A DNA stretch of 64,000 bases from an uncultured Collinsella sp. (lineage in GTDB: Bacteria > Actinomycetota > Coriobacteriia > Coriobacteriales > Coriobacteriaceae), in assembly GCA_905198355.1 (NCBI GenBank), contig CAJKCG010000001.1, positions 52,347-116,346 of the forward strand. The letters run 5' to 3'. Position numbers and translations under genes: made by a program. Positions 24,644 to 41,130 of the stretch are shown here, piece after piece; positions within the stretch are counted from its first letter, which is position 1, and the number at the start of each line of letters is the position of its first letter. The notes beneath the pieces are model-generated. The model worked only from the letters and a program-made list of their open reading frames with translations, was not told where the DNA came from and ran no database searches.

Positions 24644-24687
24644 AAAAACCACCACAAAGGGGACAGGCACCTTTGTGGTGGTTTTTT
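24644..24687. repeat. 40-bp hairpin repeat, copy 1 (AAAACCACCACAAAGG-loop-CCTTTGTGGTGGTTTT)
   Basis: Perfect 16-bp stem; loop GGACAGGCA. Confidence 0.8.
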
Positions 24688-24748
24688 CGTTCTAGTCGTT
24701 CTAGTAGTATTCATTCTTATTGATACCCACGAGCACAAGGAGTCTCTT

Positions 24749-25348
24749 ATGGCAGAGCCGCTTACCGCCGGAATCACCCGCGACCGCGCGTTCGAACTGC
24801 TCAACGAACACAACAAGGACCCGTTCCACATCACCCATGGCGAGACGGTCGAGGGCACTATGCGCTACTTTGCGCGCGAGTTCGACCCCGAGAACGAGGA
24901 GTTTTGGGGCATCGTCGGTCTGCTGCACGACCTGGATTGGGAGGAGCATGAGGACGACCCCATGAACCACACCATCTATGCGGCCGAGATCCTTGAAGGC
25001 GAGGGCGCCTCTCCCGATCTCATTCGCGCCATTCAGACGCACACGTCGGACTTCAACACCTCGCTGCCCAAGCCCGAGCTGCAGATGGAAAAGATCCTGT
25101 TTGCCTGCGACGAGCTCACCGGCCTGATCGGTGCTGCCGTCATCATGCGTCCGAGTAAGAGCGTCATGGACTTTACGACCAAGTCGCTCAAGAAAAAGTT
25201 CAAGGACAAGCGCTTTGCCGCCGGCTGCTCGCGCGACGTGATTACGCAGGGTGCCGAGATGCTGGGCTGGGAGCTCCCCGAACTCTTCGACCGTACCATC
25301 GCGGCCATGCAGTCCTTCGCCCCCGACCGCGACACCTTTCAGGCTTAA
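24749..25348 (+). CDS. HD-domain phosphohydrolase
   Basis: 199 aa; H...HD...D metal-binding residues (HITHGE...LHDLDW); AAGGAG RBS. Confidence 0.65.
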   Translation: MAEPLTAGITRDRAFELLNEHNKDPFHITHGETVEGTMRYFAREFDPENEEFWGIVGLLHDLDWEEHEDDPMNHTIYAAEILEGEGASPDLIRAIQTHTSDFNTSLPKPELQMEKILFACDELTGLIGAAVIMRPSKSVMDFTTKSLKKKFKDKRFAAGCSRDVITQGAEMLGWELPELFDRTIAAMQSFAPDRDTFQA

Positions 25349-25352
25349 TTCC

Positions 25353-25394
25353 AAAACCACCACAAAGGGGACAGGCACCTTTGTGGTGGTTTTT
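25353..25394. repeat. 40-bp hairpin repeat, copy 2
   Basis: Identical stem; same loop orientation as copy 1. Confidence 0.8.
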
Positions 25395-25407
25395 GTTTGC
25401 GCGGGCG

Positions 25408-26694
25408 TTAGGGGCGGACCTGGCCGGTGCCTCGGAGCTTGTATTTGTAGGTGGTGAGGGCCTCGGCGGCAAAGGGGCCGCGGGCGTGGAGCTTTTGGGT
25501 CGAGATGCCGATCTCGGCGCCCAGTCCAAACTCGCCGCCGTCGGTGAAGCGCGTGCTGGCGTTGGCGTACACGGCCGAGGCGTCAACCTGATCCAGGAAG
25601 CGCTCGCAGGCGTCCACATCCTCGGCGATGATGGCCTCGGAATGCATGGTGCCATAGCGGTTGATGTGCGCGATGGCCTCATCCTCGTTCGCAACGACCT
25701 TCACGCTCATCTCGAGCGCCAGGTACTCGCGGCCCCAGTCTTCCTCGGTCGCGGCCGCGTAGTCATCGCCCTCAGCAAGACCGGCATCAGCGCACGCGGC
25801 GCACGTGGCCTCGTCACCGTGAATCAGTACACCGTGGTCGTGCAGCACGGCCGCGGCCGCAGACAAAAACGAATCTGCCACGGCGCGGTCGACCAGCAGC
25901 GACTCGGCGGCATTGCACACGCCCACGCGCTGGGTCTTGGCATTGACGATAATGTTGAGCGCTTTATCGAAGTCGGCGGATTCATGGACGTAGATATGGC
26001 AGTTGCCCGTACCCGTCTCGATCACCGGTACGAGCGACTCGCGCACGCAGCGCTGGATCAGGCCCGCACCGCCACGTGGGATGAGCACATCGACAATACC
26101 GCGGAGCTTCATGAGCTCGCCGGTGGCCTCGCGGTCGGTAGACTCGATCATCGAGACGGCCTCGCGCGGGAAACCCTGAGCCTCAAGTGCATCGGCCAGC
26201 AGTTCGGCAATCATGGCGCACGAGTGATACGCCAGCGAACCGCCGCGCAGGATGCAGGAGTTGCCGGTGCGGATGCAGATGCCCGCGGCGTCGGCCGTCA
26301 CGTTGGGGCGCGCCTCGTAGACCATGGCGACCAGGCCCAGCGGCACAGTCACACGCGTAAGGTCCACACCGCTTGCAAGCACGCGGTGGTCGAGCACGCG
26401 GCCGACGGGATCGGGCAGATCGGCAAGCTTCTCCAGGCCGGCGGCCATGCCCTCGACGCGCTCGGGCGTCAGCAGCAGGCGGTCGAGAAGCCCCGCCGAG
26501 GTGCCCGCATCGCGCGCGGCGGACATATCGAACTCGTTGGCGGCAACGATGGAATCAGCGCCATCGCGCAGCGCCGCGGCCATGGCGCGCACGGCCTCCT
26601 GGCGCTGGGCATCGCTCGCCGTGGCAAGCGCGGCAGAAGCGACCTTGGCCTCGACAGCAAGATCGTGGACATACGTGGCTATATCGACCGACAT
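25408..26694 (-). CDS. proA: gamma-glutamyl phosphate reductase
   Basis: 428 aa; aldehyde dehydrogenase-type ProA family with catalytic Cys region. Confidence 0.9.
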   Translation of the reverse strand: MSVDIATYVHDLAVEAKVASAALATASDAQRQEAVRAMAAALRDGADSIVAANEFDMSAARDAGTSAGLLDRLLLTPERVEGMAAGLEKLADLPDPVGRVLDHRVLASGVDLTRVTVPLGLVAMVYEARPNVTADAAGICIRTGNSCILRGGSLAYHSCAMIAELLADALEAQGFPREAVSMIESTDREATGELMKLRGIVDVLIPRGGAGLIQRCVRESLVPVIETGTGNCHIYVHESADFDKALNIIVNAKTQRVGVCNAAESLLVDRAVADSFLSAAAAVLHDHGVLIHGDEATCAACADAGLAEGDDYAAATEEDWGREYLALEMSVKVVANEDEAIAHINRYGTMHSEAIIAEDVDACERFLDQVDASAVYANASTRFTDGGEFGLGAEIGISTQKLHARGPFAAEALTTYKYKLRGTGQVRP

Positions 26695-26807
26695 GGACGG
26701 CCCTTTCTCTTAGACGTTTGCCAACCATGGTAGCCGATTTATGCGCATCCTCGCCGACGGCGGTAGAATTGGTCAACCCGAAACACCGCAACGAATGGAA
26801 GCATCAC

Positions 26808-28226
26808 ATGGCGCTCATCACTTCGTACCACGTCCCCGGCCTGTATGTCGAGGACCACAGCATCGACGTCCCCCTCGACTGGCGCGGCCTGGAGCCGATG
26901 CTCCTGGCCGTCGGCAGCACTATGCGCCGCGGCGCCATGCCGGCGCCCATCGCCGGCGCGCCCGAGAGCATCAAGCTCTTCTACCGCGTGGTCTGCGCAC
27001 CCGACCGCATCAACGACGATCTGCCGCTGCTCCTGTTTTTGCAGGGCGGGCCCGGTGGCGAGAGCCCGCGTCCGCTGTCGCCCACGAGCGACGGCTGGAT
27101 TGAGGAGGCTGTCAAGCATTTCCGCGTCGTGCTGCCCGACCAGCGCGGAACGGGGCGCAGCAACTGCGTAGACGGGCGCACGATCGCGGCTCTGGGCGAG
27201 CGCGCGACGGCGGCCGGCTCCGATGCGGCCCGCTCGCAGGCGGACTTCCTCAAGCGCCACCTCGCCAGCTCCATCGTTCGCGATTTTGAGTACCTGCGCC
27301 TCGTGGGCTTTGGCGGCAGGCCGTGGGTCACGCTCGGCCAAAGCTACGGCGGCTTTTTAACGCTGAGCTATCTGTCGCTCTTCCCCGAGGGCGTGTCGGC
27401 GAGCTTTACCTGCGGTGGCATTCCGCATGTGCCGGCGAGCGCCAGTGAAGTCTACGCGCACACCTTTCCGCGCATGGCAGCCAAGACACAGCAATATTAC
27501 GACCGCTACCCCGCCGACGTCGAGCGCGTGGCGGCTCTTGCCGATGCGCTTGAGGAACAGAAGCCCGTGCTGCCCGACGGCTCGCCAATGACGGTGGAAC
27601 GCCTGCAGCTTATGGGCAGCGACTTTGGCATGAAGCCGAGCTTTGAGCGCATGCATTGGATTATCGATCACGCTTTTGTTGACGGCGACGGAACGCTGAG
27701 CTGCGGTGCCTCGGTATCCGATAGCTTTTTGATGCGCGCCTTCGAGCGCACCAACACACGCACGAATCCGCTGTACTGGACGTTGCAGGAATTCATCTAC
27801 GCCGACGGCGACACCATGCCCATTCGCTGGGCCGCGGCAGGAGAGAAAGCCCATCGTGCCGAGTTCGACACACTCGCGCGCCCGCTCATGTTTACCGGCG
27901 AGGCCACGTTCCCGTGGATGTTTGAGCAGATGCCCGAACTCAAGCCCTTCAAGCCCGCGATGGATCTGCTAATGGAAGACACCAGCTGGGACAAGATCTA
28001 CGACCCGCAGCGACTTGCCCGCAACGAGGTGCCACTCCAGGCCGCCGTGTATTTCGACGACATGTACGTGGACTCGGGCATGCAGCTCGACACGCTCAGC
28101 CACGTGGGCAACTCGCACGCCTGGGTGACGAACGAGTTTGAGCACGACGGCCTGCACGGCAGCGTGGTATTCAAGCACCTCTTCGACGAAGCCCTCAACC
28201 GCGGAGACCTGCGCCGAATCTTCTAG
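26808..28226 (+). CDS. alpha/beta hydrolase, prolyl aminopeptidase-like (S33 family)
   Basis: 472 aa; LLFLQGGPGG oxyanion-region motif and GQSYGG nucleophile elbow. Confidence 0.7.
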   Translation: MALITSYHVPGLYVEDHSIDVPLDWRGLEPMLLAVGSTMRRGAMPAPIAGAPESIKLFYRVVCAPDRINDDLPLLLFLQGGPGGESPRPLSPTSDGWIEEAVKHFRVVLPDQRGTGRSNCVDGRTIAALGERATAAGSDAARSQADFLKRHLASSIVRDFEYLRLVGFGGRPWVTLGQSYGGFLTLSYLSLFPEGVSASFTCGGIPHVPASASEVYAHTFPRMAAKTQQYYDRYPADVERVAALADALEEQKPVLPDGSPMTVERLQLMGSDFGMKPSFERMHWIIDHAFVDGDGTLSCGASVSDSFLMRAFERTNTRTNPLYWTLQEFIYADGDTMPIRWAAAGEKAHRAEFDTLARPLMFTGEATFPWMFEQMPELKPFKPAMDLLMEDTSWDKIYDPQRLARNEVPLQAAVYFDDMYVDSGMQLDTLSHVGNSHAWVTNEFEHDGLHGSVVFKHLFDEALNRGDLRRIF

Positions 28227-28555
28227 TGAAGAAGCGTCCCCGTCAACCGGCACAACAGGAACGTCCCCAAGTGCCGAATTCCCGAGCGCCGGATGACGCC
28301 CTTCGCCACGAAAGCGGCCCATCTACTACGTTTCGCCCGCATGGCCCAACCAGATGCCATAAATAAAGAAAACCGCAGGCGTTCTACCTGCGGTTTTCTT
28401 TTTGCAATTCTTTGCACGGTCACCGATAGCCTATTAAAAGTAGTAGATGGGCCGTTTTCGTGGCGACCAGCTCGGACATAAGCGCGGCGGGGCAAAGTTA
28501 CCCTGGTAATTTCGCCCCACGTGCATTGCAGATCGAAGGCGCCCGGCGTCGAGGC

Positions 28556-29683
28556 CTAAGCAAATACAATCAAGTTGTCCCTGTGGATCGCGGGCTTCTC
28601 GGCCAGGTCTGCCAGCAGGCGGTTGCTGGCGATCTGGTCCTGGCGGCGGCCGGCTGCAAGCTCCAGCACGTCCGAATCGGCCTCGGCGATACCGCGGGCG
28701 ACGACCATACCGCTCGGGTCGCACACGTCGAGCACATCGCCCTCGGAAAACACGCCATCGACCTCGCGAATACCCACCGTAAGCAAGGAAGAGCCACGGC
28801 TTACCAGCGCCTTCGCAGCACCATCATCGACCGTCACCGAGCCATGTGCCTTGTCACCCAGCGCGATCCACAGCTTGCGCGGCGCAATGTCCAGGCGCTC
28901 CGCCGGCGGATCGAACAGCGTACCCACGCTCTCGCCGCGGGCCAGACGCACGAGCGCATCGGGCTCCTCGCCCGAGCAAATCACGCTCTGAATGCCCGCC
29001 GTCATGAGAATGCGGCTCGCGCGGATCTTGGTGATCATGCCGCCCGTGCCCACCGATGTGGAAGAATCGCCCGCCGAGGCGATGATCTTGGCGTCGATCT
29101 TATGCACGACCGGGACGAACTCGGCCGTGGGATCCTCGTGCGGATTGGCGGTGTAGAGGCCATCGATGTCCGAGAGCGTCACGCACAGATCGGCAGAAAC
29201 CAGGCAGCTCACAAGCGCCGCCAGCGTGTCGTTGTCGCCAAACTTGATCTCATCGACGGTGACGGTATCGTTCTCGTTGACGACCGGCACCACGCCGAGC
29301 TCCACCAGGCGAAGCAGGGCGTCGCGCGCGTGCAGATAGGACGTGCGGCGCGCCGTGTCGTGGCGCGTGAGCAGCACGAGCGAGGTTAGTAGGTCACGCG
29401 CATGGAATTCCTCGTCGTAGGCCGACGAGATGATGCACTGGCCGGCCGAAGCGCATGCCTGAAGGCTCGGCAGATCGCCGACCGGCTTGCGGTCGAAGCC
29501 CAGCACGGGATAACCGCAGGCAATGGCGCCCGAGCTCACCACGACCAAGCGCCAGCCGAGCTTGCGCAGGGCCGCGGCCTGATCGGCCAGGCCACCGATA
29601 AAGGCGCGGTTGACCTTGCCGTCGGCACCCACCACCGTGGACGAACCGATCTTTACCACCATCGTTTTATAGGAAGTCGTCAT
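28556..29683 (-). CDS. proB: glutamate 5-kinase with PUA domain
   Basis: 375 aa; MVVKIGSS... amino-acid kinase fold; C-terminal PUA. Confidence 0.9.
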   Translation of the reverse strand: MTTSYKTMVVKIGSSTVVGADGKVNRAFIGGLADQAAALRKLGWRLVVVSSGAIACGYPVLGFDRKPVGDLPSLQACASAGQCIISSAYDEEFHARDLLTSLVLLTRHDTARRTSYLHARDALLRLVELGVVPVVNENDTVTVDEIKFGDNDTLAALVSCLVSADLCVTLSDIDGLYTANPHEDPTAEFVPVVHKIDAKIIASAGDSSTSVGTGGMITKIRASRILMTAGIQSVICSGEEPDALVRLARGESVGTLFDPPAERLDIAPRKLWIALGDKAHGSVTVDDGAAKALVSRGSSLLTVGIREVDGVFSEGDVLDVCDPSGMVVARGIAEADSDVLELAAGRRQDQIASNRLLADLAEKPAIHRDNLIVFA

Positions 29684-29762
29684 GCGTCAAACCAATCGAA
29701 TGTCGAGCGTTCGGGCGAGCCGGCGGCCGAGGGCATGCGATCCGCCCCTTCCGCCCAACGAA

Positions 29763-31268
29763 TTAGTGAGCCCAAGGGAAGGCCGAAGCCGCGGCCATGT
29801 TCTTGCGCACGAGCTCGTCGCGCACCTGGGCCAGGCCCTGCTCCATGCCCACCACGTAGGTCTGCGGGTACAGGAAGCGCTTGAAAGCCGCGTCCAGATG
29901 ATCGATTGACCAGGCACAACGCTCGCGCGCGTCCTCGATGCTCTCACGCGGAGCCACCGCGCTGCCGTCGCGGACGATCGGCACCAGCAGCTCACGATAC
30001 TCGAGCTCGGACACATCGGTCACCAAGGCGGCATCGTTCACAGCCACAAGGGTATTGCCGCGAGCGGCGCCCTCTCCTGCCAGATGGTCCTCGTCATAGA
30101 TCATGTCGCAGACCGGGCCGCCAAAGCCATCGTAATAGCGTCGCACGCGCTGCACGCCGGGGATCGTGCGCTTGCAGGGCTGCTCGGAAAGCTTCACCAC
30201 CGGCGTCCACGGCTCCCCGTCGCTCGCCCGACGGGCCGAAAGCTTGTACACGCCACCCAGCGCCGGCTGATCGTAGCAGGTCGCGAGCTTGGTGCCCACG
30301 CCAAAGCTGTCGATGGGCGCGCCCTGGTCGAGCAGCGACTGAATCGTGTACTCGTCCAGATCGTTGGAGACCGAAATCCCCACATAGGGCAGGCCCTCGG
30401 CGTCAAAACGGCCGCGAACATACTTGGACAACTTAGCCAGGTCGCCCGAGTCGATGCGAATGGCCGACAGGCGCTCACCCGCCGCCTCCATCTCCTTGGC
30501 AACCGTAATGGCATGTTCACAGCCCTCGCGCACGTCGTACGTGTCGATAAGCAGCGTGCAGTTCTTGGGGCTTGACTTGGCAAACGCACGGAAGGCCTCG
30601 AGCTCGGAGTCAAAGCTCATCACCCAGCTGTGCGCATGCGTGCCAAAGACGGGAATGCCGTAGCGGCGCCCGGCAAGCACGTTGGACGTAGAGGAGCAGC
30701 CGGCAACGTAGCTCGCGCGCGCAACGGCCAGGCCGCCATCGGGACCCTGGGCTCGACGCAGGCCAAACTCCGCCACAGGGCGACCGTCGGCGGCGAGCAC
30801 CACGCGCGCCGTCTTGGTGGCGACAAGCGTCTGGAACCCGACGATGTTGAGCAGCGCCGTCTCGAGCAGCTGGCACTCCAGCGCGGGGCCAGTGACGCGC
30901 ACCATGGGCTCGCGCGGAAAGACGAGCTCGCCCTCGGGCACGGCGTCAATGTTCACGTGTGCACGGAAGTTGCGCAGGTAGTCGAGGAATGCAGGCTTAA
31001 ACATCGCGCCGCCGGCCGGAGCCTGGAGCGAAGCTAGATAGTCGATGTCCTCGGGCGTAAAGCGCAGGTTCTCGACAAGCTCGGGCAGCTCGGCGGTGCC
31101 GCACATGACGGCATACGCGCTGCCGAAGGGATGGTCGCGGTAAAACGCGGTAAAACAACCCTGCTCATTGGCCTTGCCGCTCTCCCACAGGCCCTGGGCC
31201 ATAGTGAGCTCGTACAGATCGGTGAGCATTGCAATGTCGGTGGGATGCGAAATGTCGGTCAAAGCCAT
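29763..31268 (-). CDS. pncB: nicotinate phosphoribosyltransferase
   Basis: 501 aa from ATG at 31268; NAPRTase family. Confidence 0.85.
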   Translation of the reverse strand: MALTDISHPTDIAMLTDLYELTMAQGLWESGKANEQGCFTAFYRDHPFGSAYAVMCGTAELPELVENLRFTPEDIDYLASLQAPAGGAMFKPAFLDYLRNFRAHVNIDAVPEGELVFPREPMVRVTGPALECQLLETALLNIVGFQTLVATKTARVVLAADGRPVAEFGLRRAQGPDGGLAVARASYVAGCSSTSNVLAGRRYGIPVFGTHAHSWVMSFDSELEAFRAFAKSSPKNCTLLIDTYDVREGCEHAITVAKEMEAAGERLSAIRIDSGDLAKLSKYVRGRFDAEGLPYVGISVSNDLDEYTIQSLLDQGAPIDSFGVGTKLATCYDQPALGGVYKLSARRASDGEPWTPVVKLSEQPCKRTIPGVQRVRRYYDGFGGPVCDMIYDEDHLAGEGAARGNTLVAVNDAALVTDVSELEYRELLVPIVRDGSAVAPRESIEDARERCAWSIDHLDAAFKRFLYPQTYVVGMEQGLAQVRDELVRKNMAAASAFPWAH

Positions 31269-31350
31269 GGGGCGACCTTTCGGATGCGTTGTGCAGAAGT
31301 TGAGGGTTGGACGAGGCGAACGTGCGGGCATGGAGCCCGGCGCGAACAGG

Positions 31351-31800
31351 TTAGTGCAGGCCCATGCTGCCCGTGATCGTGTAGACCATAAAGACGATAA
31401 ACGCGATGAGGGCGAGCACGATGATGATTTTTTGAGCCGGAGCCATGCCGGGGATCTCATTCTCGCCCGTAGGCTCCTTGGAGGTGACCATGCGCTGGGC
31501 AAAGGTCATCTCGTCACGGCTTGGTTTGGGCTCGACGGGCTTGGGGTGAACGGCTTTTTTGGGCTGAGGCTTGGGTGCGGGCGCAGGCTTCGCGGCAGCG
31601 GGCTTGGGCGCGGGCGCCGGTGCGGGTGCGGCGTTCGCGGCGACCTCCTCGGCCTTCGCACGCTCGGCACGCAGGGCAGCCAGCTCCTCACGCTCGCGAC
31701 GGGCCTCTTCCCGAGCCTCGCGGCGTGCCTTCTCAGCGCGGAGCTCTTCCAACTCAGCGCGCTCCTCGTCGGACAATGGTTGGGACTCAAGCTCGGCCAT
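31351..31800 (-). CDS. membrane-anchored coiled-coil/Pro-Ala-rich protein
   Basis: 149 aa; charged coiled coil, PAPAPAPKP repeats, C-terminal TM helix. Confidence 0.5.
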   Translation of the reverse strand: MAELESQPLSDEERAELEELRAEKARREAREEARREREELAALRAERAKAEEVAANAAPAPAPAPKPAAAKPAPAPKPQPKKAVHPKPVEPKPSRDEMTFAQRMVTSKEPTGENEIPGMAPAQKIIIVLALIAFIVFMVYTITGSMGLH

Positions 31801-31864
31801 GGTACAGCCCTTTCTTTTAAAAAAAGCCGCCGACACAATGTCAGCGGCTTATCAAATCCAAGGG

Positions 31865-31937
31865 TGGAGACGAAGGGAGTCGAACCCTCGGCCTCTGCCA
31901 TGCGACGGCAGCGCTCTCCCAACTGAGCTACGTCCCC
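31865..31937 (-). tRNA. tRNA-Ala (anticodon CGC)
   Basis: G3:U70 identity pair; anticodon loop GTCGCAT; D- and T-arms fold. Confidence 0.8.
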
Positions 31938-31990
31938 AGGACAAGTCGATATTTTACCTACGGCTCGCCAACTGTCAACGCCCAATAACC

Positions 31991-32156
31991 AGTCTTTTTG
32001 GGGCGGGGCTATTTTAGCTACTTTCAGATGCCGGCTCGACCCCTGCCGAGAGTAGTCTTTTTGGGACGGGGCTTTTTAGCTGCCCCTGCCGTTAATCGGC
32101 CAAAACGTGTGCGCTCTCTGCTGGGGCTAAAAAAGCCCCGTCCCAAAAAGACTACT
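31991..32156. repeat. three copies of a ~30-bp unit AGTCTTTTTGGGRCGGGGCTWTTTTAGC (two direct, one inverted)
   Basis: Copies at 31991-32019, 32051-32081 and 32126-32156 (inverted). The latter two form a near-perfect 31-bp inverted repeat. Confidence 0.7.
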
Positions 32157-32164
32157 CAGCAGAG

Positions 32165-33118
32165 CTACTTTGCGCTGGTAAGAACACCGGTGGTGTCAAA
32201 CGCCGGGGTAAAGCTCTCGTCTACCGCGCCGCCCTCTTGCCAAAACATCGTCGTAAAGCCCAGGTCGTCGGCATGGTCGAGCGCCTGCTCGTACTCCTCG
32301 CGCGTTACGGCACGGGCCAACTCGCCGCCCTGCTCGCGCATGAGTGCATTGGGCGTGTACTGGTTCATAACCGAAATCGGCACGTCGCCCACCGTCTGCC
32401 ACACCAGGTCCAGCACGCGGCACGAATCGTCCGCATGCCCCGGCAGCACCAGGTGGCGCACGATGATACCGCGCTTCATGAGCCCGTCCTCGTCCACCAG
32501 CTCTCCCCCGCGGCGCTCGATCTCGCACGCCATCTGTGCCAGGCCCGACACGGCCACGCGCGGGTAATCCTTAATATGAGAAAGCGACTGCGCAAGCCCG
32601 GCATCGGCATATTTAAAGTCGGTGAGCCACACATCGACCAGGTCACCCAGGGCAGCTACGGCACTCGCCCGCTCATAGCCGCTCGTGTTGTAAACGATCG
32701 GGATGTCCAGCCCGCGCTCCCTCGCTGCGGCAATCGCGGCCGGCAGCAGGTGAGCATAATGCGTCGCAGTCACCAGGTTGATGTTGTTGGCTCCCTGGTC
32801 CTGCAGTTCCAGCATAATCTCGACCAGACGCTCAGGCGAAATCTCAAGGCCAAAATTGCCGGTCGAGATCTCGTGGTTCTGGCAGTAGATACATTTAAGC
32901 GAGCAGCCGCTAAAGAAGATCGTGCCCGAACCGGCCTCGCCCGAGATAGGCGGCTCCTCCCACATATGAAGCGCCGCGCGGGCCACCCTGAGCGTGTCGT
33001 TAGCACCGCATACGCCGCGCACGCCCTCATCGCGCGCCGCACCGCAACGGCGGGGACACAAATGGCAGGCGGGCGAAAAAAGTTCGGTCAACGACGTCGG
33101 CATAAAAACATGCTCCAA
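32165..33118 (-). CDS. radical SAM protein, PflX-like glycyl-radical-activase family
   Basis: 317 aa; N-terminal CHLCPRRC...GVCG cluster and GCSLKCIYCQN CxxxCxxC motif. Start uncertain (TTG at 33118 or ATG at 33103). Confidence 0.7.
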   Translation of the reverse strand: MEHVFMPTSLTELFSPACHLCPRRCGAARDEGVRGVCGANDTLRVARAALHMWEEPPISGEAGSGTIFFSGCSLKCIYCQNHEISTGNFGLEISPERLVEIMLELQDQGANNINLVTATHYAHLLPAAIAAARERGLDIPIVYNTSGYERASAVAALGDLVDVWLTDFKYADAGLAQSLSHIKDYPRVAVSGLAQMACEIERRGGELVDEDGLMKRGIIVRHLVLPGHADDSCRVLDLVWQTVGDVPISVMNQYTPNALMREQGGELARAVTREEYEQALDHADDLGFTTMFWQEGGAVDESFTPAFDTTGVLTSAK

Positions 33119-33368
33119 AACAACGATTCAGCAGCTCAAACGTAAAGGGCCAGGCCGCGTAGACGGCTCGAGCCCCAAGGCGCCGTAATCGTCCGACACG
33201 ATTTTTGTAATGTCAAGACTGGAATCGATAAAGTGCCGCTTTATGATGTAGGTATTCCGCCCCCCGCGGAGCAACTGGGTGAACCGTCGCGTTTATTTAG
33301 GGAGCCCACACAGTCGTACCTAGTACAGGTATCCTTCGTTGTTAAGGACGCTGGAACAGTCGATGAGG

Positions 33369-33396
33369 GCACCCACCTGTTTTAGGTGGGTTCATT
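33369..33396 (+). terminator. terminator-like hairpin inside a 480-bp noncoding region (CCCACCTGTTTTAGGTGGG followed by TTCATTTT)
   Basis: Seen directly. Could end a small RNA or attenuate a leader upstream of the wecA-like gene. Confidence 0.35.
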
Positions 33397-33629
33397 TTCG
33401 TAACGTGGGGGGTGGTTTTCTTTTGCCGAAAATCACCATTACAGTCCATATGGATCCCCGTCGGCATCCCGACAAGCCATCGACAACATCCCAATATCTG
33501 GTAAGCGCGTGATTATCGCTGCGTGCAATTACATGCACCCCCCTTGGTCGAGTATTATGGTTCGGCTATGCCCTTTGCGCATGGCGTTCTTCTGACCTTT
33601 TCCTTCGACGCTTGGCGGTTTTTAGATTC

Positions 33630-34829
33630 ATGGCTTCATCCCCGAGCTACATACCGTACCTATGCGTGGCAGCGGCGGCCTTTATCACGACCTTCCTCGC
33701 GGTGCCCCTGGTCAAGCGCTTGGCAATTAAGCTCGATGCCGTCGACTATCCTTCTAAGCGCCGCATCAACACAAAGCCCATCCCGCGTTTGGGCGGAACG
33801 GCGGTGTTTTTGGGCCTGGTCGTTGCCTGCATTGTGCAAATCCTAGGCACCTGGCACCTAGGCTGGCCACCCGTCCTGGTGCCGCACCCGCGCCTTCACA
33901 TTAGCTATCCCATGCTGGCGCTCTCCTTTACCGTCATCTTTGCGACCGGCGCTATCGACGACGTCTTCCAACTCAAGCCCAAGCAAAAGCTGGCCGGGCA
34001 GGTCCTCGCCGCGCTCATCGCCTGTATCGGCGGCCTGCGGATCGGCGTCATCGTCAACCCGTTTGCCCCCGGCGAAATCATGCTCGGGTGGCTCGCCTAC
34101 CCCATCACCGTAATCTATCTGGCGGCATTCACCAACATCATTAACCTCATCGACGGCCTCGACGGCTTGGCCACGGGCATCTGCGGCATCGCCTCGTTCA
34201 CCATGTTTTCGATGGCCGTTCTCTCGGGCCGCATCGACGCCGCCGCGCTCTCCATTGCGCTCTTTGGCGCCTGCCTGGCCTTTTTGCGCTACAACTTCAA
34301 CCCCGCAAGCATCTTCTTGGGCGACTCGGGGTCGCTGCTTCTGGGCTTTGCACTGGGCTCCATCTCGCTGCTCAACGTGAGCCGCACCGCCGCGCTCACC
34401 TCGCTTATCATCCCGCTCATCGTTGCCGGCGTGCCCATCATCGACACGTTTAGCGCCATCGTGCGCCGCAGGCGCGCCCACATTAGCATTGGGCAGGCCG
34501 ACAAGGGCCACATCCACCACCGCCTAATCCAAGAAGGCTACAACCAAAAACAGGCCGTGCTGCTCATCTATGCCTGGTGCATCATGCTTTCGGCCGGCGC
34601 CGCCGCGATTAACCAGGTCGAAGTGCCCATGCGTGTGCTCATCTTTACCGTGCTCGCCATTGGCTCGGCGGCCTTCGCCAAGCACCTGCACCTGTTTGAA
34701 CCCGTGCTACGCCACCATTACAACAAGCGCACGCACGAGGACGAGCTCGTCACCCCCGACGACCCCGCCTTTAAGCAGGAGGAGCAGGCAGCCGAGGAGC
34801 GCAAAGAAGAGCGCCACCACAAGCTCTAG
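33630..34829 (+). CDS. undecaprenyl-phosphate N-acetylhexosamine-1-phosphate transferase (WecA/TagO, MraY-like)
   Basis: 399 aa; NLIDGLDGLATG motif and multiple TM helices. Confidence 0.8.
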   Translation: MASSPSYIPYLCVAAAAFITTFLAVPLVKRLAIKLDAVDYPSKRRINTKPIPRLGGTAVFLGLVVACIVQILGTWHLGWPPVLVPHPRLHISYPMLALSFTVIFATGAIDDVFQLKPKQKLAGQVLAALIACIGGLRIGVIVNPFAPGEIMLGWLAYPITVIYLAAFTNIINLIDGLDGLATGICGIASFTMFSMAVLSGRIDAAALSIALFGACLAFLRYNFNPASIFLGDSGSLLLGFALGSISLLNVSRTAALTSLIIPLIVAGVPIIDTFSAIVRRRRAHISIGQADKGHIHHRLIQEGYNQKQAVLLIYAWCIMLSAGAAAINQVEVPMRVLIFTVLAIGSAAFAKHLHLFEPVLRHHYNKRTHEDELVTPDDPAFKQEEQAAEERKEERHHKL

Positions 34830-34999
34830 GGCAAGCTGCCGAGGATGTGCCAAGGCACCGTTGGCCAAGCGCGGCCGCGCCGCGCCCATCGCACAAGCCG
34901 CACCACGCGCGTCCCTCTCCCGCCCCTCGCCTACTTACGCACCGCCCCTCCAATAAACGCGTTATCATCTTGACCCATGAACATACGTTAGGAGCAATC

Positions 35000-36049
35000 A
35001 TGCCAAACGAGAACAGCTACGAAGTCGCGCTGCAAAAGAGCAACGCCATTCGCGAGGGCCTGACCAAAACGCCCGAGAAGTTCACCATGCTCACCGGCGA
35101 CCGCCCCACCGGCCGTCTGCACCTGGGCCACTACTTCGGTACCCTCAAGGGCCGTGTTGAGCTGCAGAACATGGGCGCCAAGACCAACGTGCTCATCGCC
35201 GACTACCAGGTCATCACTGACCGCGACACGACCGAGCACATCCAGGACAACGTGTACAACATGGTCATGGACTACCTTGCCTGCGGCATCGATCCCGACA
35301 AGACCATGATCTACGCGCACTCCGCCGTGCCCGCCGCCAACCAGCTCATGCTGCCGTTCCTGTCGCTGGTCTCCGAGGCCGAGCTGGCGCGCAACCCCAC
35401 CGTCAAGGCCGAGATGGAGGCCTCGGGCCACGAGCTCACCGGCCTTCTGCTCACCTACCCGGTGCATCAGGCCTGCGACATCCTGTTCTGCAAGGGCAAC
35501 GTCGTGCCCGTCGGCCGCGACCAGCTGCCGCACATCGAGCTCACCCGCACCATCGCCCGCCGCTTTAACAACCGCTACGGCAAGGTGTTCCCCGAGGTCG
35601 ACGCGCTGCTGTCCGAGACCCCGCTGCTGCCGGGCCTGGACGGTCGCAAGATGAGCAAGAGCTACGGCAACGCCATCAACATCTCGATGACCGCCGAGGA
35701 AACGGCCAAACGCATCAAGAAGAGCCAGACCGACTCCGAGCGCATGATCACGTTCGATCCCGAGAACCGCCCCGGCGTGTCTGGCCTGCTTTCAACAGCC
35801 GCCATCTGCACCGGCCGTTCCGAAGTCGAGATTGCCGAGGAGATCGGCATGGGCGGCTCCGGCCAGCTCAAGAAGTACGTGACCGAGGCCGTCAACGAGT
35901 ACTTCGCCCCGATCCGTGAGCGTCGCCAGCGCTACGAGAACGACCTGGATTACGTCAAGGACGTCCTGCACGAGGGCAATCGTCGCGCCAACGAGATCGC
36001 CGAGCGGACCCTGGCCGAGGTTCAGGACGCCATGGGCATGGTGTACTAG
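35000..36049 (+). CDS. trpS: tryptophan--tRNA ligase
   Basis: 349 aa; HLGHY and KMSKS class I motifs; AGGAG RBS. Confidence 0.9.
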   Translation: MPNENSYEVALQKSNAIREGLTKTPEKFTMLTGDRPTGRLHLGHYFGTLKGRVELQNMGAKTNVLIADYQVITDRDTTEHIQDNVYNMVMDYLACGIDPDKTMIYAHSAVPAANQLMLPFLSLVSEAELARNPTVKAEMEASGHELTGLLLTYPVHQACDILFCKGNVVPVGRDQLPHIELTRTIARRFNNRYGKVFPEVDALLSETPLLPGLDGRKMSKSYGNAINISMTAEETAKRIKKSQTDSERMITFDPENRPGVSGLLSTAAICTGRSEVEIAEEIGMGGSGQLKKYVTEAVNEYFAPIRERRQRYENDLDYVKDVLHEGNRRANEIAERTLAEVQDAMGMVY

Positions 36050-36102
36050 GCAAAGCGCTTTCGCACAACATAAACGGTGAGATTAGATTTCTCCCCGAAA
36101 CA

Positions 36103-36144
36103 GGAACAGGCCCGCTGGCAGCCAGTTGCCAGCGGGCCTGTTCC
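36103..36144 (+). terminator. 18-bp-stem hairpin after trpS (GGAACAGGCCCGCTGGCA gccagt TGCCAGCGGGCCTGTTCC)
   Basis: Perfect palindrome seen directly; no T-run follows. Confidence 0.55.
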
Positions 36145-36320
36145 CGAAGTACACCGTTGAATCGCACAGAGGGGAGGGATGCGAATCAAACTCAACAGGG
36201 CAGGCTTTTTCATCGCCTATTGCCTGCTCCGTTGCTGAAACCAATATAGTTCACCGTGGTTTACTTTGTAGCGGCAATAAGCGCCGCCATAGCTTCTCCA
36301 TAAGTTAGCTCTGGTAAACT

Positions 36321-36361
36321 AAAACCACCACAAAGAGGACAGGCACCTTTGTGGTGGTTTT
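36321..36361. repeat. 40-bp hairpin repeat, copy 3 (variant GAGGACAGGCA loop)
   Basis: Same ACCACCACAAAG stem. Confidence 0.8.
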
Positions 36362-36377
36362 AGCCACGGCAGAGCTG

Positions 36378-36698
36378 TTAGAGTCCGGCAGGCCAGCGAC
36401 AGGCGTCCAGATCGACGTGCATGGGATCGGTAAACGTCACGCGCTCCCCCATTAAGAGCTCACGCTGAGCATCGGGGCCGCCAAACGCAAAGCCATCGCA
36501 AATGCGGCCATCGGCAAACACCACACGATGGCAGGGAATCTGACCAGGGCGCGGATTGCTGTGCAGCGCATAGCCCACGTACCGCGCGCTTCGTGGACGA
36601 CCGGCGAGCAGCGCCACTTGGCCGTACGTGGCGACCATCCCCTCGGGAATCTGCTCGACCACCTCGTACACCCGCTCAAAAAAGCCCTCAGACGCCAT
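36378..36698 (-). CDS. MGMT-family protein (methylated-DNA--protein-cysteine methyltransferase DNA-binding domain)
   Basis: 106 aa; PCHRVV active-site motif. Confidence 0.75.
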   Translation of the reverse strand: MASEGFFERVYEVVEQIPEGMVATYGQVALLAGRPRSARYVGYALHSNPRPGQIPCHRVVFADGRICDGFAFGGPDAQRELLMGERVTFTDPMHVDLDACRWPAGL

Positions 36699-36727
36699 CG
36701 TCCACTCCTTTCAACCGGAACCAGCAT

Positions 36728-36768
36728 AAACCACCACAAAGGTGCCTGTCCCCTTTGTGGTGGTTTTT
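36728..36768. repeat. 40-bp hairpin repeat, copy 4 (loop inverted: GGTGCCTGTCCCC)
   Basis: Same stem; the loop is the reverse complement of copies 1, 2 and 5. Confidence 0.8.
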
Positions 36769-36778
36769 GGCAGGTCGG

Positions 36779-37633
36779 TTAGTTGGCGGGCTGGAAGAAG
36801 GCTACGGCTACGGCGCCGGGACCTACGTGGGTGCCGATGGTGGCGCCGATGGTGTGGACGGGCAGCTCGCCCTCGGTGCGGTCAGCCCACAGGGCCGCGC
36901 TGTCCTCGATATACTTCTTGAGCACCGCATCCGAAAGACCCGTATAGCCAAGCGCCAGCGGCATGGCAAAGTCGACGCCGCCCGCCTTTTCGACCTTCTG
37001 GTTCAGCAGGTTACGACCGTTCTTGGAGCCGCGCGCCTTGCCCAGCTGTACGATCAGACCGTCCTCTACAGCCACCACAGGCTTTACGTTGAGCAGTGTA
37101 CCCACGGCGCCCGCAGCAGCAGACAGGCGACCGCCGCGCACCAGATACTCCAGCGTCTCGAGCAGGCCGATAACCACCACACGGTCGCGCACGGCCTCGA
37201 CAGCCGCCGCAATCTGAGATGCACTGCGGCCCTCGTCCACCAAGCGCAGCGCATACTCGACCAGGACGCGCTCGCCCAGGGTGACGTTGTTGCTGTCTAC
37301 CACGAACACGTCGCCACCTGGCGCCTCGGCAAGTGCGGTACGGGCACTCTGATTGGTGCCTGATAGCTTAGCGCCCACGGTAATAATCACAGCCTCATCG
37401 CCGGCTTCACGAACCTTGGCAATCGCCTGCGAAAACGTGTACGGGTTGACCTGGCCGGTCTTGGGCAGCTCATCGCGCTCCACGAGCATCTCGTAAAAGC
37501 GCTGGTGATCGATGTCGATGCCATCCATGTACACATCGGTGCCAAAGGTGACGGACAGCGGCAAAACGGCCAGCGCCGGATGCTCCGACGGCGACATATC
37601 GCTTGCAGAATCGGTAATAATACGGACGGACAT
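36779..37633 (-). CDS. DegV-family fatty-acid-binding protein
   Basis: 284 aa from ATG at 37633; MSVRIITDSASD N-terminus typical of DegV. Confidence 0.8.
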   Translation of the reverse strand: MSVRIITDSASDMSPSEHPALAVLPLSVTFGTDVYMDGIDIDHQRFYEMLVERDELPKTGQVNPYTFSQAIAKVREAGDEAVIITVGAKLSGTNQSARTALAEAPGGDVFVVDSNNVTLGERVLVEYALRLVDEGRSASQIAAAVEAVRDRVVVIGLLETLEYLVRGGRLSAAAGAVGTLLNVKPVVAVEDGLIVQLGKARGSKNGRNLLNQKVEKAGGVDFAMPLALGYTGLSDAVLKKYIEDSAALWADRTEGELPVHTIGATIGTHVGPGAVAVAFFQPAN

Positions 37634-37752
37634 AGTGAATCCTTTCTTGCGCAGGTCTCGCACAGGGAATTTTGACAGCAATGCCCCGGCGCGGCGTACG
37701 CGCTCAAACGGGACTCTGCAGTTGTTTATTGAAAGCAAATGCTCCAGCGACT

Positions 37753-38202
37753 CTACAGCTCGCGCAGGGTGTTGAGAATCGTGCGCAGCGACGCGTACAT
37801 CTGCTCGCGCTGCTCCACGCCCATGGTCTTGCCGGTGGTGTCGAGCACTTCGCGAATAATGCGATCGGCCTCGTTCATGCTCTCGCCGCCCAACGTGGTC
37901 AGGCGAACCGGAGCACGGTATTTAACGGCGGCATCGCCCGAATCTTCGACCTCGACGTAGCCGCCCTCCTCCAGATGCGCCAGCGTGCGCGAAACGGCGG
38001 CACGGGTCACGCCTGCCATGCGGGCGAGGTCAGCGCCAGTCAAGCCGTCCTTGCTGCGCTCAAGATAGTACAGGCACATGACATCGGAGCCCTTAAGGCC
38101 GAGCCTTGCGCCTTCGGACGTCTTAATGCGCTGGATCTCCTTGTAGAGACCGCTGATCAGTCCGACAAAGTCCTCGAAACGTGTCTCGTCGCTCTGCTGC
38201 AT
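37753..38202 (-). CDS. MarR-family transcriptional regulator
   Basis: Winged-helix ...LTGADLARMAGVTRAAVSRTLAHLEEGGYV...; start uncertain. Confidence 0.7.
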   Translation of the reverse strand: MQQSDETRFEDFVGLISGLYKEIQRIKTSEGARLGLKGSDVMCLYYLERSKDGLTGADLARMAGVTRAAVSRTLAHLEEGGYVEVEDSGDAAVKYRAPVRLTTLGGESMNEADRIIREVLDTTGKTMGVEQREQMYASLRTILNTLREL

Positions 38203-38305
38203 GGGAGACAACCGCCTTTCGCTTGCATAATGCTTACGGGTAAACATCTTAGTCGCATAAGGCGACACCCATACCCAAATACCCCATTTGTTAACCCATC
38301 AACAT

Positions 38306-38347
38306 AAAAACCACCACAAAGGGGACAGGCACCTTTGTGGTGGTTTT
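38306..38347. repeat. 40-bp hairpin repeat, copy 5
   Basis: Same stem and loop as copy 1. Confidence 0.8.
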
Positions 38348-38375
38348 GACCGGCGAACATGATCCGCTGGCGTCG

Positions 38376-39095
38376 CTACAGCTCCACGCAGGGATTGTCG
38401 CGGGTCACAAGCGCCTTAACGACAACCGTAGCGCCCAGATAGCGCTTAAGCAGCTCGGCTAAGCGATCGATCGCAGCCTGGCAATCCCCCATCCGCTCGG
38501 GCTCCACGCACTCAATCGCCAGGAACGCATCGGCCGAATCGTCGGACAGGGCCGTTCGAACGCCGTCGCGCCAGTTCCAGCAGCGGCACACGGCGCCCGC
38601 ATCATCGATGTAGGCGAGCTCGCCGGGCAGCGTCGGATCGTCCGCCTCCTCGCCAAGCGGCAAGAACGCATCGCCACCGTCGGTCACCTTCAAGCGAAGG
38701 TCTCCCTCGATCGCATGCAGATCCTCGCCTCCCACGGGCAGCGCGTAGGTCAGCGACACCGTGTTGTAGATGTCCACCGCGGGCGTAATGTGGCCCACAG
38801 GCTTGCCCTTAAGCACGCGCTTGAGCAAGTTCTCGATTGAGCAGCGGGCGCCCTTTTTAGTCTTGAACAGCCGGTACGCGTCGCGCCATGCCTTGACCGG
38901 CGCGTTCTCGCTGATGGTATCGCTAGTCAGGTGGCGCTCCGCATCGATGTTGGCGCGGTCAAGCAGCGCGGCGATCGCATCCACGTCCTCCTGGGGAATC
39001 TGAGCCGCGGGCTTCATGCCCTTTACGACCACCACACCGACCGCTGCCTGCGGAAACAGCTCCCAAAACGAATTCTCGGCAATAAAGCTCTTCAT
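38376..39095 (-). CDS. B3/4-domain protein (PheT-related tRNA-binding domain family)
   Basis: 239 aa; conserved SIENLLKRV...ITPAVDIYN region typical of stand-alone B3/4 proteins. Confidence 0.5.
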   Translation of the reverse strand: MKSFIAENSFWELFPQAAVGVVVVKGMKPAAQIPQEDVDAIAALLDRANIDAERHLTSDTISENAPVKAWRDAYRLFKTKKGARCSIENLLKRVLKGKPVGHITPAVDIYNTVSLTYALPVGGEDLHAIEGDLRLKVTDGGDAFLPLGEEADDPTLPGELAYIDDAGAVCRCWNWRDGVRTALSDDSADAFLAIECVEPERMGDCQAAIDRLAELLKRYLGATVVVKALVTRDNPCVEL

Positions 39096-39266
39096 ACGCT
39101 CTCCCTTCATTGTGCGCGCCCGAGTGAGGGCGCCTAAACAAAAAGCGCCCTTACAACGGCCACCTTCAAAGTCCTACGGTGCCGTCACAAGAACGCTTGC
39201 GCTGTCCCCATCCGGAGAAGGGGACGATATGTCAGGCGTATTGTAACCCGAGTCATCCACGCGAGC

Positions 39267-39303
39267 AAAACCACCACAAAGGTGCCTGTCCCCTTTGTGG
39301 TGG
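39267..39303. repeat. 40-bp hairpin repeat, copy 6 (inverted loop, truncated right arm)
   Basis: AAAACCACCACAAAGGTGCCTGTCCCCTTTGTGGTGG. Confidence 0.75.
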
Positions 39304-39322
39304 ATATGGACTTGAGGCGACG

Positions 39323-40993: not shown

Positions 40994-41130
40994 GGGGCCT
41001 CCTTTAAAAACGCGGCACGTGGACGCGGCGCGCACTTTACTCACGTAAAGCCCGTTGTACCCGATATGCAAAAACGTTTTTGCGGCAACGGCGAAGCGCC
41101 CGCCCAACGGTCAAAAATCGCACGCAAGCG

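What the first reader, a model, noticed from the sequence alone, without database searches (positions are those of the whole stretch)
24644..39303. Family of 40-bp perfect hairpin repeats (6 copies) that bracket single genes; the loop is found in both orientations
The element AAAACCACCACAAAGG-[GGACAGGCA or its reverse complement]-CCTTTGTGGTGGTTTT occurs at 24644, 25353, 36321, 36728, 38306 and 39267. Three gene cassettes are each flanked by a pair: the HD hydrolase, the MGMT-family gene and the B3/4 gene. The stem is invariant while the 9-13-nt loop flips, as expected for a structure selected at the RNA or DNA hairpin level (REP-like terminators, or recombination or uptake signals). The pairwise bracketing of single genes is unusual.
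Basis: seen in the sequence. Interest (0 to 1): 0.6.

Follow-up and report, generated by a model that had tools for sequence, protein, structure and literature searches.

The report
Repeated terminator-like hairpin family in Collinsella
The six identical 41-base hairpins are copies of a repeat specific to the Collinsella aerofaciens group; it sits just after stop codons and most likely acts as a ready-made transcription terminator, so it is a new example of a known kind of bacterial repeat, not a gene-cassette system.

Summary
Six copies of AAAACCACCACAAAGG-GGACAGGCA-CCTTTGTGGTGGTTTT lie at 24645, 25353, 36321, 36727, 38307 and 39267; chance expects 0.05. A covariance model finds no seventh copy.

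Each copy lies 4-28 nt past a stop codon. The same element occurs in more than 100 Collinsella genome assemblies (184 copies harvested). It is found in 48% of convergent, 30% of tandem and only 4% of divergent intergenic regions, with a median of 15 nt after the stop.

The loop does not flip in place. Its orientation is fixed at every orthologous site and follows the upstream gene at 22 of 29 independent sites. Arms, loop and 3' T-tract are all more conserved than the flanks.

More distant Collinsella species lack the element. They carry unique GC-rich hairpins after the same genes.

Best reading: a lineage-specific, sequence-conserved, largely bidirectional intrinsic-terminator or 3'-end hairpin repeat, analogous to mycobacterial TRIT and to REP elements. 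The "bracketing" arises because consecutive short genes each end in the same hairpin.

No RAYT, target-site duplication, uptake-signal or integron signature was found. How the element spreads is unknown, and termination itself was not tested.

The parts
24645..24685 (+). Hairpin copy 1, perfect 16-bp stem, loop GGACAGGCA. It lies 13 nt after the stop of the CarD-like gene (24146-24631, +) and 63 nt before the HD gene start.
   Evidence: 71 bits
25353..25393 (+). Hairpin copy 2, perfect. It lies 4 nt after the stop of the HD gene (24749-25348, +) and 14 nt after the stop of the convergent aldehyde-dehydrogenase-family gene (25408-26694, -).
   Evidence: 72 bits
36321..36361 (+). Hairpin copy 3 (AAAGA mismatch at the top of the stem). 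It lies 16 nt after the stop of the MGMT-like gene (36378-36698, -), in reverse orientation to that gene. It is 271 nt after the TyrRS stop, and TyrRS has its own 18-bp GC hairpin at 36103-36144.
36727..36767 (-). Hairpin copy 4 (loop reads GGACAGGCA on the - strand). It lies 11 nt after the stop of DegV (36779-37738, -) and only 28 nt before the MGMT-like start codon, so it sits within an operon.
38307..38347 (+). Hairpin copy 5, perfect. It lies 28 nt after the stop of the B3/4 gene (38376-39110, -), in reverse orientation to it, and 38 nt before the MarR start (37753-38268, -).
39267..39307 (-). Hairpin copy 6 (outer tract on the + strand reads ATAT). It lies 15 nt after the stop of PEPCK (39323-41107, -), in forward orientation, and 156 nt before the B3/4 start.

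Best explanation
The element is a lineage-specific, sequence-conserved palindromic repeat of the Collinsella aerofaciens species group. It occupies the position of an intrinsic (Rho-independent) terminator.

Once transcribed, it folds into a 12-bp CCACCACAAAGG/CCUUUGUGGUGG stem, which the AAAA/UUUU tracts extend to 16 bp. The 9-nt loop is closed by one further G-C pair. A run of 4-5 U follows the stem.

Because an A-tract precedes the stem and a T-tract follows it, the element can work on either strand. This suits convergent gene pairs.

The element still has a preferred polarity: loop GGACAGGCA in the sense of the upstream gene, with a better-kept T-tract on that side.

Some copies lie only 28-38 nt before the next start codon. 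These are probably leaky terminators or 3'-end stabilisers inside operons, as REP elements are.

In this lineage the repeat has taken over gene ends that carry unique GC-rich hairpins in more distant Collinsella species.

Shown here: the anatomy, genomic position, orientation bias, conservation and taxonomic range. Inferred: termination or RNA stabilisation. Unknown: the way copies were spread.
For: Position:
- All 6 window copies lie 4-28 nt after a stop codon.
- Of 184 copies from 120 Collinsella loci plus the window, 86 are in tandem, 52 in convergent and 3 in divergent intergenic regions. The element occupies 48%, 30% and 4% of those region types. The median is 15 nt after the stop and 93 nt before the next start.

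Fold:
- Forward orientation -25.2 kcal/mol, reverse -23.7, z about -5.7.

Polarity:
- 22 forward against 7 reverse independent sites, binomial p = 0.008.
- T at +1 to +4 in 173/166/164/118 of 184 copies, against A at -1 to -4 in 153/143/119/129.

Constraint (identity between orthologues):
- Arms 98%, loop 89.6%, T-tract 92%, A-tract 83%, downstream flank 76-77%.
- Three double compensatory stem changes, plus AAGA/TCTT covariation in the tracts.

Functional replacement:
- C. tanakaei, Collinsella sp. An2 and a third genome have no copy in the 12-kb orthologous loci. They carry unique GC hairpins after the same genes.
- At the site orthologous to 36727, two genomes carry a different 95-nt palindrome between the same flanks.

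Precedent:
- TRIT in Mycobacterium has 147 palindromic, mostly bidirectional, sequence-conserved terminator motifs and is restricted to that genus (PMC3152330).
Against: - No transcript 3'-end data were available, so termination is not shown.
- The U-tract is short (4-5 U, against the canonical 7-9 cited in PMC3993855). Several copies sit too close to the next start codon to be efficient terminators.
- A plain terminator does not need 41 nt of conserved sequence or a conserved loop. This points to an added constraint, such as a binding factor or the dispersal mechanism.
- Seven of 29 independent sites are in reverse orientation.
- Arm conservation is partly inflated, because the genome scan required exact arms in at least one copy per locus.
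Confidence: 0.75

Rival explanations
1. REP/REPIN-type mobile palindromes, spread by a REP-associated tyrosine transposase (RAYT) or another IS200-like Y1 enzyme. Any terminator activity would be incidental.
For: The element is a short extragenic palindrome present at high copy with near-identical sequence, including the loop. Inverted pairs flank other repeat units in a mosaic that resembles BIME clusters.
Against: - phmmer with E. coli RayT against the six-frame translation of about 1 Mb of hairpin-bearing Collinsella DNA gave no hit at E <= 10. This test has low power.
- There is no conserved GTAG-type 5' tag.
- Copies are almost all single, not doublets.
- Sites are stable between species at 88-94% nucleotide identity: the hairpin is present at 49 of 51 orthologous positions.
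Confidence: 0.1
2. Recombination sites that shuffle or invert the single genes they bracket, making an invertible or mobile cassette system.
For: - The MGMT-like gene lies between inverted copies (36321+, 36727-). It is inverted relative to all flanking genes when compared with two outgroup genomes.
- L038 and L069/L090 share the left flank and the 5' arm, then differ in loop orientation and in the right flank. This places a recombination junction inside the hairpin.
Against: - No orientation polymorphism of the MGMT-like gene was seen among 11 genomes that carry both copies.
- B3/4 is not inverted. The HD gene could not be compared, because no outgroup locus covers it.
- Synteny breaks are not significantly enriched at hairpin-bearing gene ends: 6 of 18 clusters against 9 of 55.
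- The phage-type integrase at 5904-7364 is the only recombinase found among the 20 window genes scanned, and it lies about 17 kb from the nearest copy. The outgroups that define the inversion have no hairpins.
Confidence: 0.06
3. DNA uptake signal sequences arranged as inverted pairs, as in Neisseria or Pasteurellaceae.
For: Invariant arms sit at terminator positions. Inverted uptake sequences are known to form terminators; this rests on my own knowledge of Kingsford et al. 2007, which appears in the reference list seen.
Against: - Single arms are rare: 25 of 389 arm matches, most of them remnants of hairpins.
- The loop is conserved, so the whole 41 nt is the repeat unit.
- To my knowledge, natural competence is not known in Collinsella.
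Confidence: 0.02
4. A double-stranded DNA binding site, for example for a dimeric regulator or nucleoid protein, with no RNA-level role.
For: A 12-N9-12 palindrome with a conserved spacer would suit a dimeric DNA-binding protein. Conservation is at the level of sequence more than pairing.
Against: - Copies are almost absent from divergent (promoter) regions and sit right after stop codons.
- Compensatory changes keep the stem paired.
- The flanking T-tract has a polarity.
Confidence: 0.05

Closest known systems
TRIT (Tuberculosis Rho-independent terminator motif) of Mycobacterium (RNIE paper, PMC3152330)
   Same: Both are palindromic stem-loops conserved in sequence as well as structure. Both are on the order of 100-150 copies per genome (147 for TRIT; a rough extrapolation for this element). 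Both are mostly bidirectional, tightly linked to gene termini, restricted to one actinobacterial lineage, and conserved enough to suggest an extra binding factor.
   Different: The sequences are unrelated and the phylogenetic classes differ (Coriobacteriia here). TRIT centres around -8, overlapping the stop codon, whereas this element has a median of +15. This element also has clear A and T tracts and a conserved asymmetric loop with an orientation bias.
REP / BIME elements of Enterobacteria and Pseudomonas (REPINs with RAYT)
   Same: Both are 20-40-nt extragenic palindromes at the 3' ends of genes and inside operons. Both can stabilise upstream mRNA or attenuate read-through (my own knowledge of the REP literature). 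In some loci they occur in mosaics with other palindromic units.
   Different: No RAYT was found. There is no GTAG tag. Copies are mostly single. The stem is near-perfect and flanked by a U-tract, which tools such as RepRanger use to class an element as a terminator, not a REP.
Inverted DUS/USS pairs that double as terminators (Neisseria, Haemophilus)
   Same: An identical arm sequence recurs at many terminators.
   Different: Here the loop is conserved and single arms are rare, so the unit is the whole hairpin.
Integron attC sites and gene cassettes
   Same: Hairpin-forming sites separate single genes.
   Different: There are no R''/R' core sites and the stem is perfect, without extrahelical bases. 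The genes are housekeeping genes in mixed orientation, and most keep the same order in species that lack the element. No integron-type integrase turned up among the 20 window genes scanned; the only recombinase found is a phage-type integrase about 17 kb away.

Membership tests
Intrinsic (Rho-independent) terminator | Stable stem-loop in the transcript | tested here: met
   12-16 bp stem, -20.8 to -25.2 kcal/mol, z about -5 to -6
Intrinsic (Rho-independent) terminator | U-rich tract immediately 3' of the stem (canonically 7-9 nt) | tested here: inconclusive
   T at +1 to +3 in 164-173 of 184 copies and at +4 in 118. Position +5 is T in only 69, so the tract is 4-5 U, which is short.
Intrinsic (Rho-independent) terminator | Located just downstream of stop codons and absent from promoter regions | tested here: met
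   Median 15 nt after the stop. Present in 48% of convergent, 30% of tandem and 4% of divergent intergenic regions.
Intrinsic (Rho-independent) terminator | Transcript 3' ends map to the U-tract | not testable with these tools
   No RNA-seq or Term-seq data are available here.
REP / REPIN-RAYT | Short extragenic palindrome repeated many times per genome | tested here: met
   184 copies in about 0.95 Mb of (biased) Collinsella DNA, and 6 in the 64-kb window
REP / REPIN-RAYT | Cognate RAYT (Y1 transposase) gene, usually flanked by the repeats | tested here: inconclusive
   E. coli RayT gave no phmmer hit in six-frame translations of all loci and the window. The test used a single-sequence query and only about 1 Mb sampled across many genomes, so its power is low.
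REP / REPIN-RAYT | Conserved 5' tetranucleotide tag (GTAG/CGTC) and doublet (REPIN) arrangement | tested here: not met
   The consensus is CCAAAACCACC... with no GTAG tag. Copies are single and separated by whole genes.
TRIT-like sequence-conserved terminator motif | Palindromic, sequence-conserved, at gene termini, restricted to one lineage | tested here: met
   The element is absent from C. tanakaei, Collinsella sp. An2, L126 and L130. This shows analogy only. The TRIT consensus was not compared directly; the Rfam scans gave no match, and I do not know whether Rfam holds a TRIT model.
DNA uptake sequence (DUS/USS) | Many single copies, including inside genes; pairs share arms but not loops | tested here: not met
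   Only 25 of 389 arm matches lie outside hairpins, and the loop is conserved.
MITE | Target-site duplication flanking the element | tested here: not met
   Direct repeats abutting the element are no more frequent than in shuffled flanks.
Integron attC / cassette array | attC core sites, co-oriented promoterless cassettes, nearby intI | tested here: not met
   There is no GTTRRRY core. The genes are housekeeping genes in mixed orientation, and most keep the same order in species without the element. Only 20 window genes were scanned with Pfam; the only recombinase found is a phage-type integrase at 5904-7364, about 17 kb away.

The most novel reading that the evidence does not exclude
The 41-nt hairpin, loop included, could be the recognition unit of a hairpin-specific system that has not been identified. 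This could be a termination or RNA-binding factor, or a DNA transposase or recombinase unrelated to RAYT. Such a system would install ready-made bidirectional terminators at gene ends in the C. aerofaciens lineage. As a side effect it would drive local rearrangements: the inversion of the MGMT-like gene between inverted copies, junctions inside hairpins, and mosaic arrays with other palindromic units.
Probability: 0.12. Interest if true: 0.65.

Novelty: new member of a known kind. Interest (0 to 1): 0.35.

Why it matters
Collinsella aerofaciens is an abundant human gut actinobacterium with little experimental genetics.

Practical uses:
- The conserved 41-nt motif marks transcript ends, which helps define operons, small RNAs and 3' UTRs in hundreds of Collinsella genomes and metagenome bins.
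- It is a lineage marker.
- It offers a compact bidirectional terminator part for engineering.

Biological interest:
- It is a second actinobacterial case, after mycobacterial TRIT, in which terminators are conserved in sequence as well as shape.
- This raises the same open question: is a dedicated factor or a copying mechanism behind such families?
- The conserved loop, the orientation bias and the replacement of ancestral unique hairpins give concrete handles for testing that question.

Tried and rejected
- Rfam gave no family for the hairpin or for the neighbouring arrays, at gathering or E-value thresholds.
- Literature: no paper holds the arm sequence in a bacterial context, and no REP or terminator repeat is described for Collinsella. 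A candidate motif, HMP2_10134, in PMC8040213 could be the same element, but its alignment is not among the held files.
- In-place loop inversion of the kind seen at chloroplast hairpins is rejected. Orientation is uniform in every cleanly orthologous cluster. The mixed clusters were artefacts of neighbouring repeats or of double-hairpin sites.
- Phage origin is rejected. Only 3 IMG/VR contigs carry the element.
- RAYT: no hit.
- Target-site duplication: none.
- Uptake signal: rejected.
- Hot spot for synteny breaks: the trend is not significant.
- Empty sites among close relatives: none found apart from one replacement by another palindrome, so insertion boundaries could not be defined.
- Pfam on genes next to the TGTAACAG arrays found ClpB and unknown proteins, but no transposase.
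Full report
**1. Observation**

A search for the 16-nt arm with up to 2 mismatches finds 12 matches. They form six inverted pairs, at 24645-24685, 25353-25393, 36321-36361, 36727-36767, 38307-38347 and 39267-39307. Dinucleotide shuffles give a mean of 0.05 matches.

The repeat finder recovers the same six copies and shows that similarity stops at the hairpin. The unit is 41 nt: AAAACCACCACAAAGG, a 9-nt loop, then CCTTTGTGGTGGTTTT.

Four copies carry the loop GGACAGGCA on the + strand. Copies 36727 and 39267 carry its reverse complement.

Three copies are perfect. The other three have one or two changes at the top or base of the stem.

A covariance model built from 73 distinct copies and run with filters off scores these six at 65-72 bits. 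Nothing else in the window scores above 15.5 bits.

**2. Context in the window**

The DNA is about 62% G+C. Genes were called by third-position G+C and named with Pfam.

Each hairpin follows a stop codon closely:

| Gene | Strand | Distance from stop to hairpin |
|---|---|---|
| CarD-like | + | 13 nt |
| HD | + | 4 nt |
| Aldehyde-dehydrogenase family (same hairpin as HD) | - | 14 nt |
| MGMT-like | - | 16 nt |
| DegV | - | 11 nt |
| B3/4 | - | 28 nt |
| PEPCK | - | 15 nt |

The "bracketing" therefore comes from a run of short transcription units that each end in the same hairpin. On the - strand these are PEPCK, B3/4, MarR-DegV and MGMT-like. On the + strand they are CarD-like and HD.

Two copies sit only 28 nt (36727) and 38 nt (38307) before the next start codon. 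This leaves little room for a promoter. Those copies must allow read-through, or act as attenuators or 3'-end stabilisers.

TyrRS has its own 18-bp GC hairpin without a U-tract at 36103-36144. The copy at 36321 therefore serves the MGMT-like side.

The window also encodes Rho (18871-21420).

**3. Range**

They come from more than 100 assemblies.

Nearly all are labelled Collinsella, C. aerofaciens or Coriobacteriaceae. A few are labelled only "uncultured bacterium". The single "Acutalibacteraceae" contig is orthologous to Collinsella loci.

Only 3 viral contigs carry the element.

Loci that overlap the window are 88-95% identical to it.

A tolerant search harvested 184 copies. Of these, 120 have the exact consensus loop in one orientation or the other, and most of the rest differ by one base. 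The covariance model adds almost no diverged members, so the family is tight.

As a rough estimate, 64 extra copies in 0.89 Mb, and 6 in the 64-kb window, suggest on the order of 100-200 copies per 2.4-Mb genome. This is an extrapolation from biased samples, not a count.

**4. Position and polarity**

By copies, 86 are in tandem, 52 in convergent and 3 in divergent intergenic regions.

Measured against all intergenic regions of the same loci, the element is present in 48% of convergent, 30% of tandem and 4% of divergent regions. In tandem regions it lies a median of 15 nt after the stop and 93 nt before the next start.

Copies were then grouped by the tail of the gene that reads into them. Among independent, non-convergent sites, 22 have the loop GGACAGGCA in the sense of that gene and 7 have it reversed (binomial p = 0.008).

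When copies are oriented by the loop, the T-tract after the stem is better kept (T in 173/166/164/118 of 184 at +1 to +4) than the A-tract before it (A in 153/143/119/129).

The forward RNA folds slightly better than the reverse (-25.2 against -23.7 kcal/mol).

Within every cleanly orthologous site the orientation is uniform across species. The loop does not flip in place.

**5. Constraint**

Pairwise identity between orthologous copies from different species:

| Region | Identity |
|---|---|
| Arms (inflated by the exact-match scan) | 98% |
| Loop (no sequence constraint from the scan) | 89.6% |
| T-tract | 92% |
| A-tract | 83% |
| End of the upstream coding sequence | 81-86% |
| Downstream flank | 76-77% |

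At the six window sites, 49 of 51 orthologous positions in other genomes keep a recognisable hairpin.

Three copies carry double compensatory stem changes (A-T to G-C, or C-G to T-A). The tracts covary as well (AAGA/TCTT).

Site-specific loop variants, such as GGCCAGGCA, are inherited at their site across species. This favours purifying selection over continuing homogenisation.

**6. Outgroups**

Orthologous 12-kb loci were fetched through homologues of the B3/4 protein.

- Genomes with 84-86% B3/4 identity (L129, L131) still have the hairpin after PEPCK, but not after B3/4.
- Genomes at 74-81% identity have none. These are C. tanakaei (L124), Collinsella sp. An2 (L125), L126 and L130.
- In those genomes the same genes end in unique GC-rich hairpins.

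At the site orthologous to 36727, two aerofaciens-group genomes carry a different 95-nt palindrome between the same flanks.

The repeat therefore occupies positions that are otherwise filled by ordinary terminator-like hairpins.

**7. Dispersal**

- No target-site duplication is present.
- No homologue of E. coli RayT was found in about 1 Mb of hairpin-bearing DNA. This test has low power.
- No empty sites were found among close relatives.
- Single arms are rare.

The copying mechanism remains unknown. The copies look old and stable, not currently mobile.

**8. Rearrangements**

Hairpin-bearing gene ends show synteny breaks somewhat more often than other gene ends (6 of 18 clusters against 9 of 55). 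The difference is not significant.

Two specific cases stand out:

- L038 and L069/L090 share the left flank and the 5' arm, then differ in loop orientation and in everything to the right.
- The MGMT-like gene, flanked by inverted copies, is inverted relative to GT4, TyrRS, B3/4 and PEPCK when the window is compared with L125 and L126.

These cases fit occasional homologous recombination between copies. They do not show a cassette system.

**9. Comparison with known systems**

No Rfam family matches, and no paper in the library describes the sequence.

The closest described thing is TRIT of Mycobacterium. It has 147 palindromic, mostly bidirectional, sequence-conserved terminator motifs restricted to that genus. 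Its authors suggested that an extra factor binds the motif (PMC3152330).

REP/BIME elements are similar in size, position and likely RNA-level effects, but the RAYT, tag and doublet criteria are not met. Uptake-signal pairs, MITEs and integron attC sites fail their defining tests.

**10. Verdict**

The flipping loop, the uptake signal and the special bracketing are not supported.

The element is a new member of a known kind. It is of moderate interest, chiefly as an annotation landmark and as a second actinobacterial example of sequence-conserved terminators.

Noticed in passing
L011:7630-7860; also L051:2470-2640, L083, L072, L069, L090, L100, L109, L112, L118, L050, L121, L123: Next to many hairpin copies lie arrays of 2-3 units at an ~80-nt period. 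Each unit is a ~56-nt hairpin with 16-nt arms (G)TCTCGATCTGTAACA / TGTTACAGATCGAGA(C) and a semi-conserved 23-25-nt loop. The arrays are often flanked by two 41-nt hairpins in inverted orientation, a mosaic that resembles BIME clusters. They are present or absent between close relatives: L051 and L118 are filled, while L005, L089, L094, L052, L097 and L114 are empty. In L051 a partial copy of the 3' arm sits at the far end of the insert. No Rfam match and no transposase nearby; one array lies upstream of clpB. None occurs in the window.
   Followed up: partly
L036:240-390 and L054:1451-1600 (orthologous to window 36727-36767): A different ~95-nt perfect palindrome (GAAATGATCCCTTGGGGACGGAGGAAAACGGATCAT...ATGATCCGTTTTCCTCCGTCCCCAAGGGATCATTT) replaces the 41-nt hairpin between identical flanks. 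Its arm recurs in 9 loci, so it is another repeat family.
   Followed up: partly
L066, L016, L070, L032, L079, L120, L108, L065, L029, L075, L072 (directly after hairpin copies): A second repeated terminator-like hairpin, CCAGATAAAACCTGCCAAAATAAACCTGTCCCTTTTTGGCAGGTTTT, sits right after the 41-nt hairpin behind at least three different genes.
   Followed up: no
window 36362-36726 (MGMT-like gene 36378-36698): The MGMT-like gene aligns to L125 and L126 on the opposite strand from all its neighbours (GT4, TyrRS, the conserved non-coding block 36152-36238, B3/4, PEPCK). It has therefore been inverted, and the end-points coincide with the inverted hairpin pair. MarR-DegV is absent from this position in those outgroups.
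   Followed up: partly
L038:6826 versus L069:3783 and L090:3422: These loci share the left flank and the 5' arm of the hairpin, but have the opposite loop orientation and an unrelated right flank. This looks like a recombination junction inside the hairpin.
   Followed up: partly
window 21594-21640 and 41134-41180: A 47-nt repeat (87% identical), TAGTCATCGGGGACGTTCATAAACGACTAGTCAAAAGGGATACTCTT, lies upstream of the rho gene (start 21420) and just upstream of the PEPCK start (41107). It may be a shared leader or operator.
   Followed up: no
window 33255-33418 (+): A weak 6S RNA match (31.5 bits, below the gathering score of 46.4). The block 33212-33419 is 84% identical in L125 and L126, but on the opposite strand relative to the neighbouring GT4 gene.
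   Followed up: no
window 32050-32157; 28303-28466; 43097-43131 with 46028-46150; 42950-43145 with 45969-46164: Other long palindromes and repeats. There is a perfect 28-nt inverted repeat, GAGTAGTCTTTTTGGGACGGGGCTTTTT, with a 52-nt spacer; its arm recurs in 16 sources. There is a 31-nt inverted repeat with a 102-nt spacer. A 196-nt direct repeat flanks the Metallophos and Na/H-exchanger genes. These genomes carry several palindromic repeat families.
   Followed up: partly
window 807-916: A tandem run of 10-nt units, GTGCAAC/GTGCAAT plus 3 variable bases (iteron-like), lies at the edge of a block of small - strand genes that includes a phage-type integrase (5904-7364). The block is probably a prophage or integrated element.
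   Followed up: no
window 49073-51445 and 55000-57000: A BrxL (BREX Lon-like protease) gene is present, and a nearby low-G+C stretch (43-50%) suggests an acquired defence island.
   Followed up: no
L130:5742-5777 and L126:5585-6000: Outgroup species that lack the family have unique hairpins built on a similar ACCACC...GGTGGT(T) core, for example GACCACCGCAGG-GTTT-CCTGTGGTGGTC. These may be the kind of terminator from which the family arose.
   Followed up: no
PMC8040213, Table S1, entry HMP2_10134: This is a 50-nt candidate structured RNA reported only from Collinsella. Its neighbouring genes include ProB/PUA and mraY/Rfe types, as seen near window copies. It may be this element, but the alignment file is not among those held.
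   Followed up: partly
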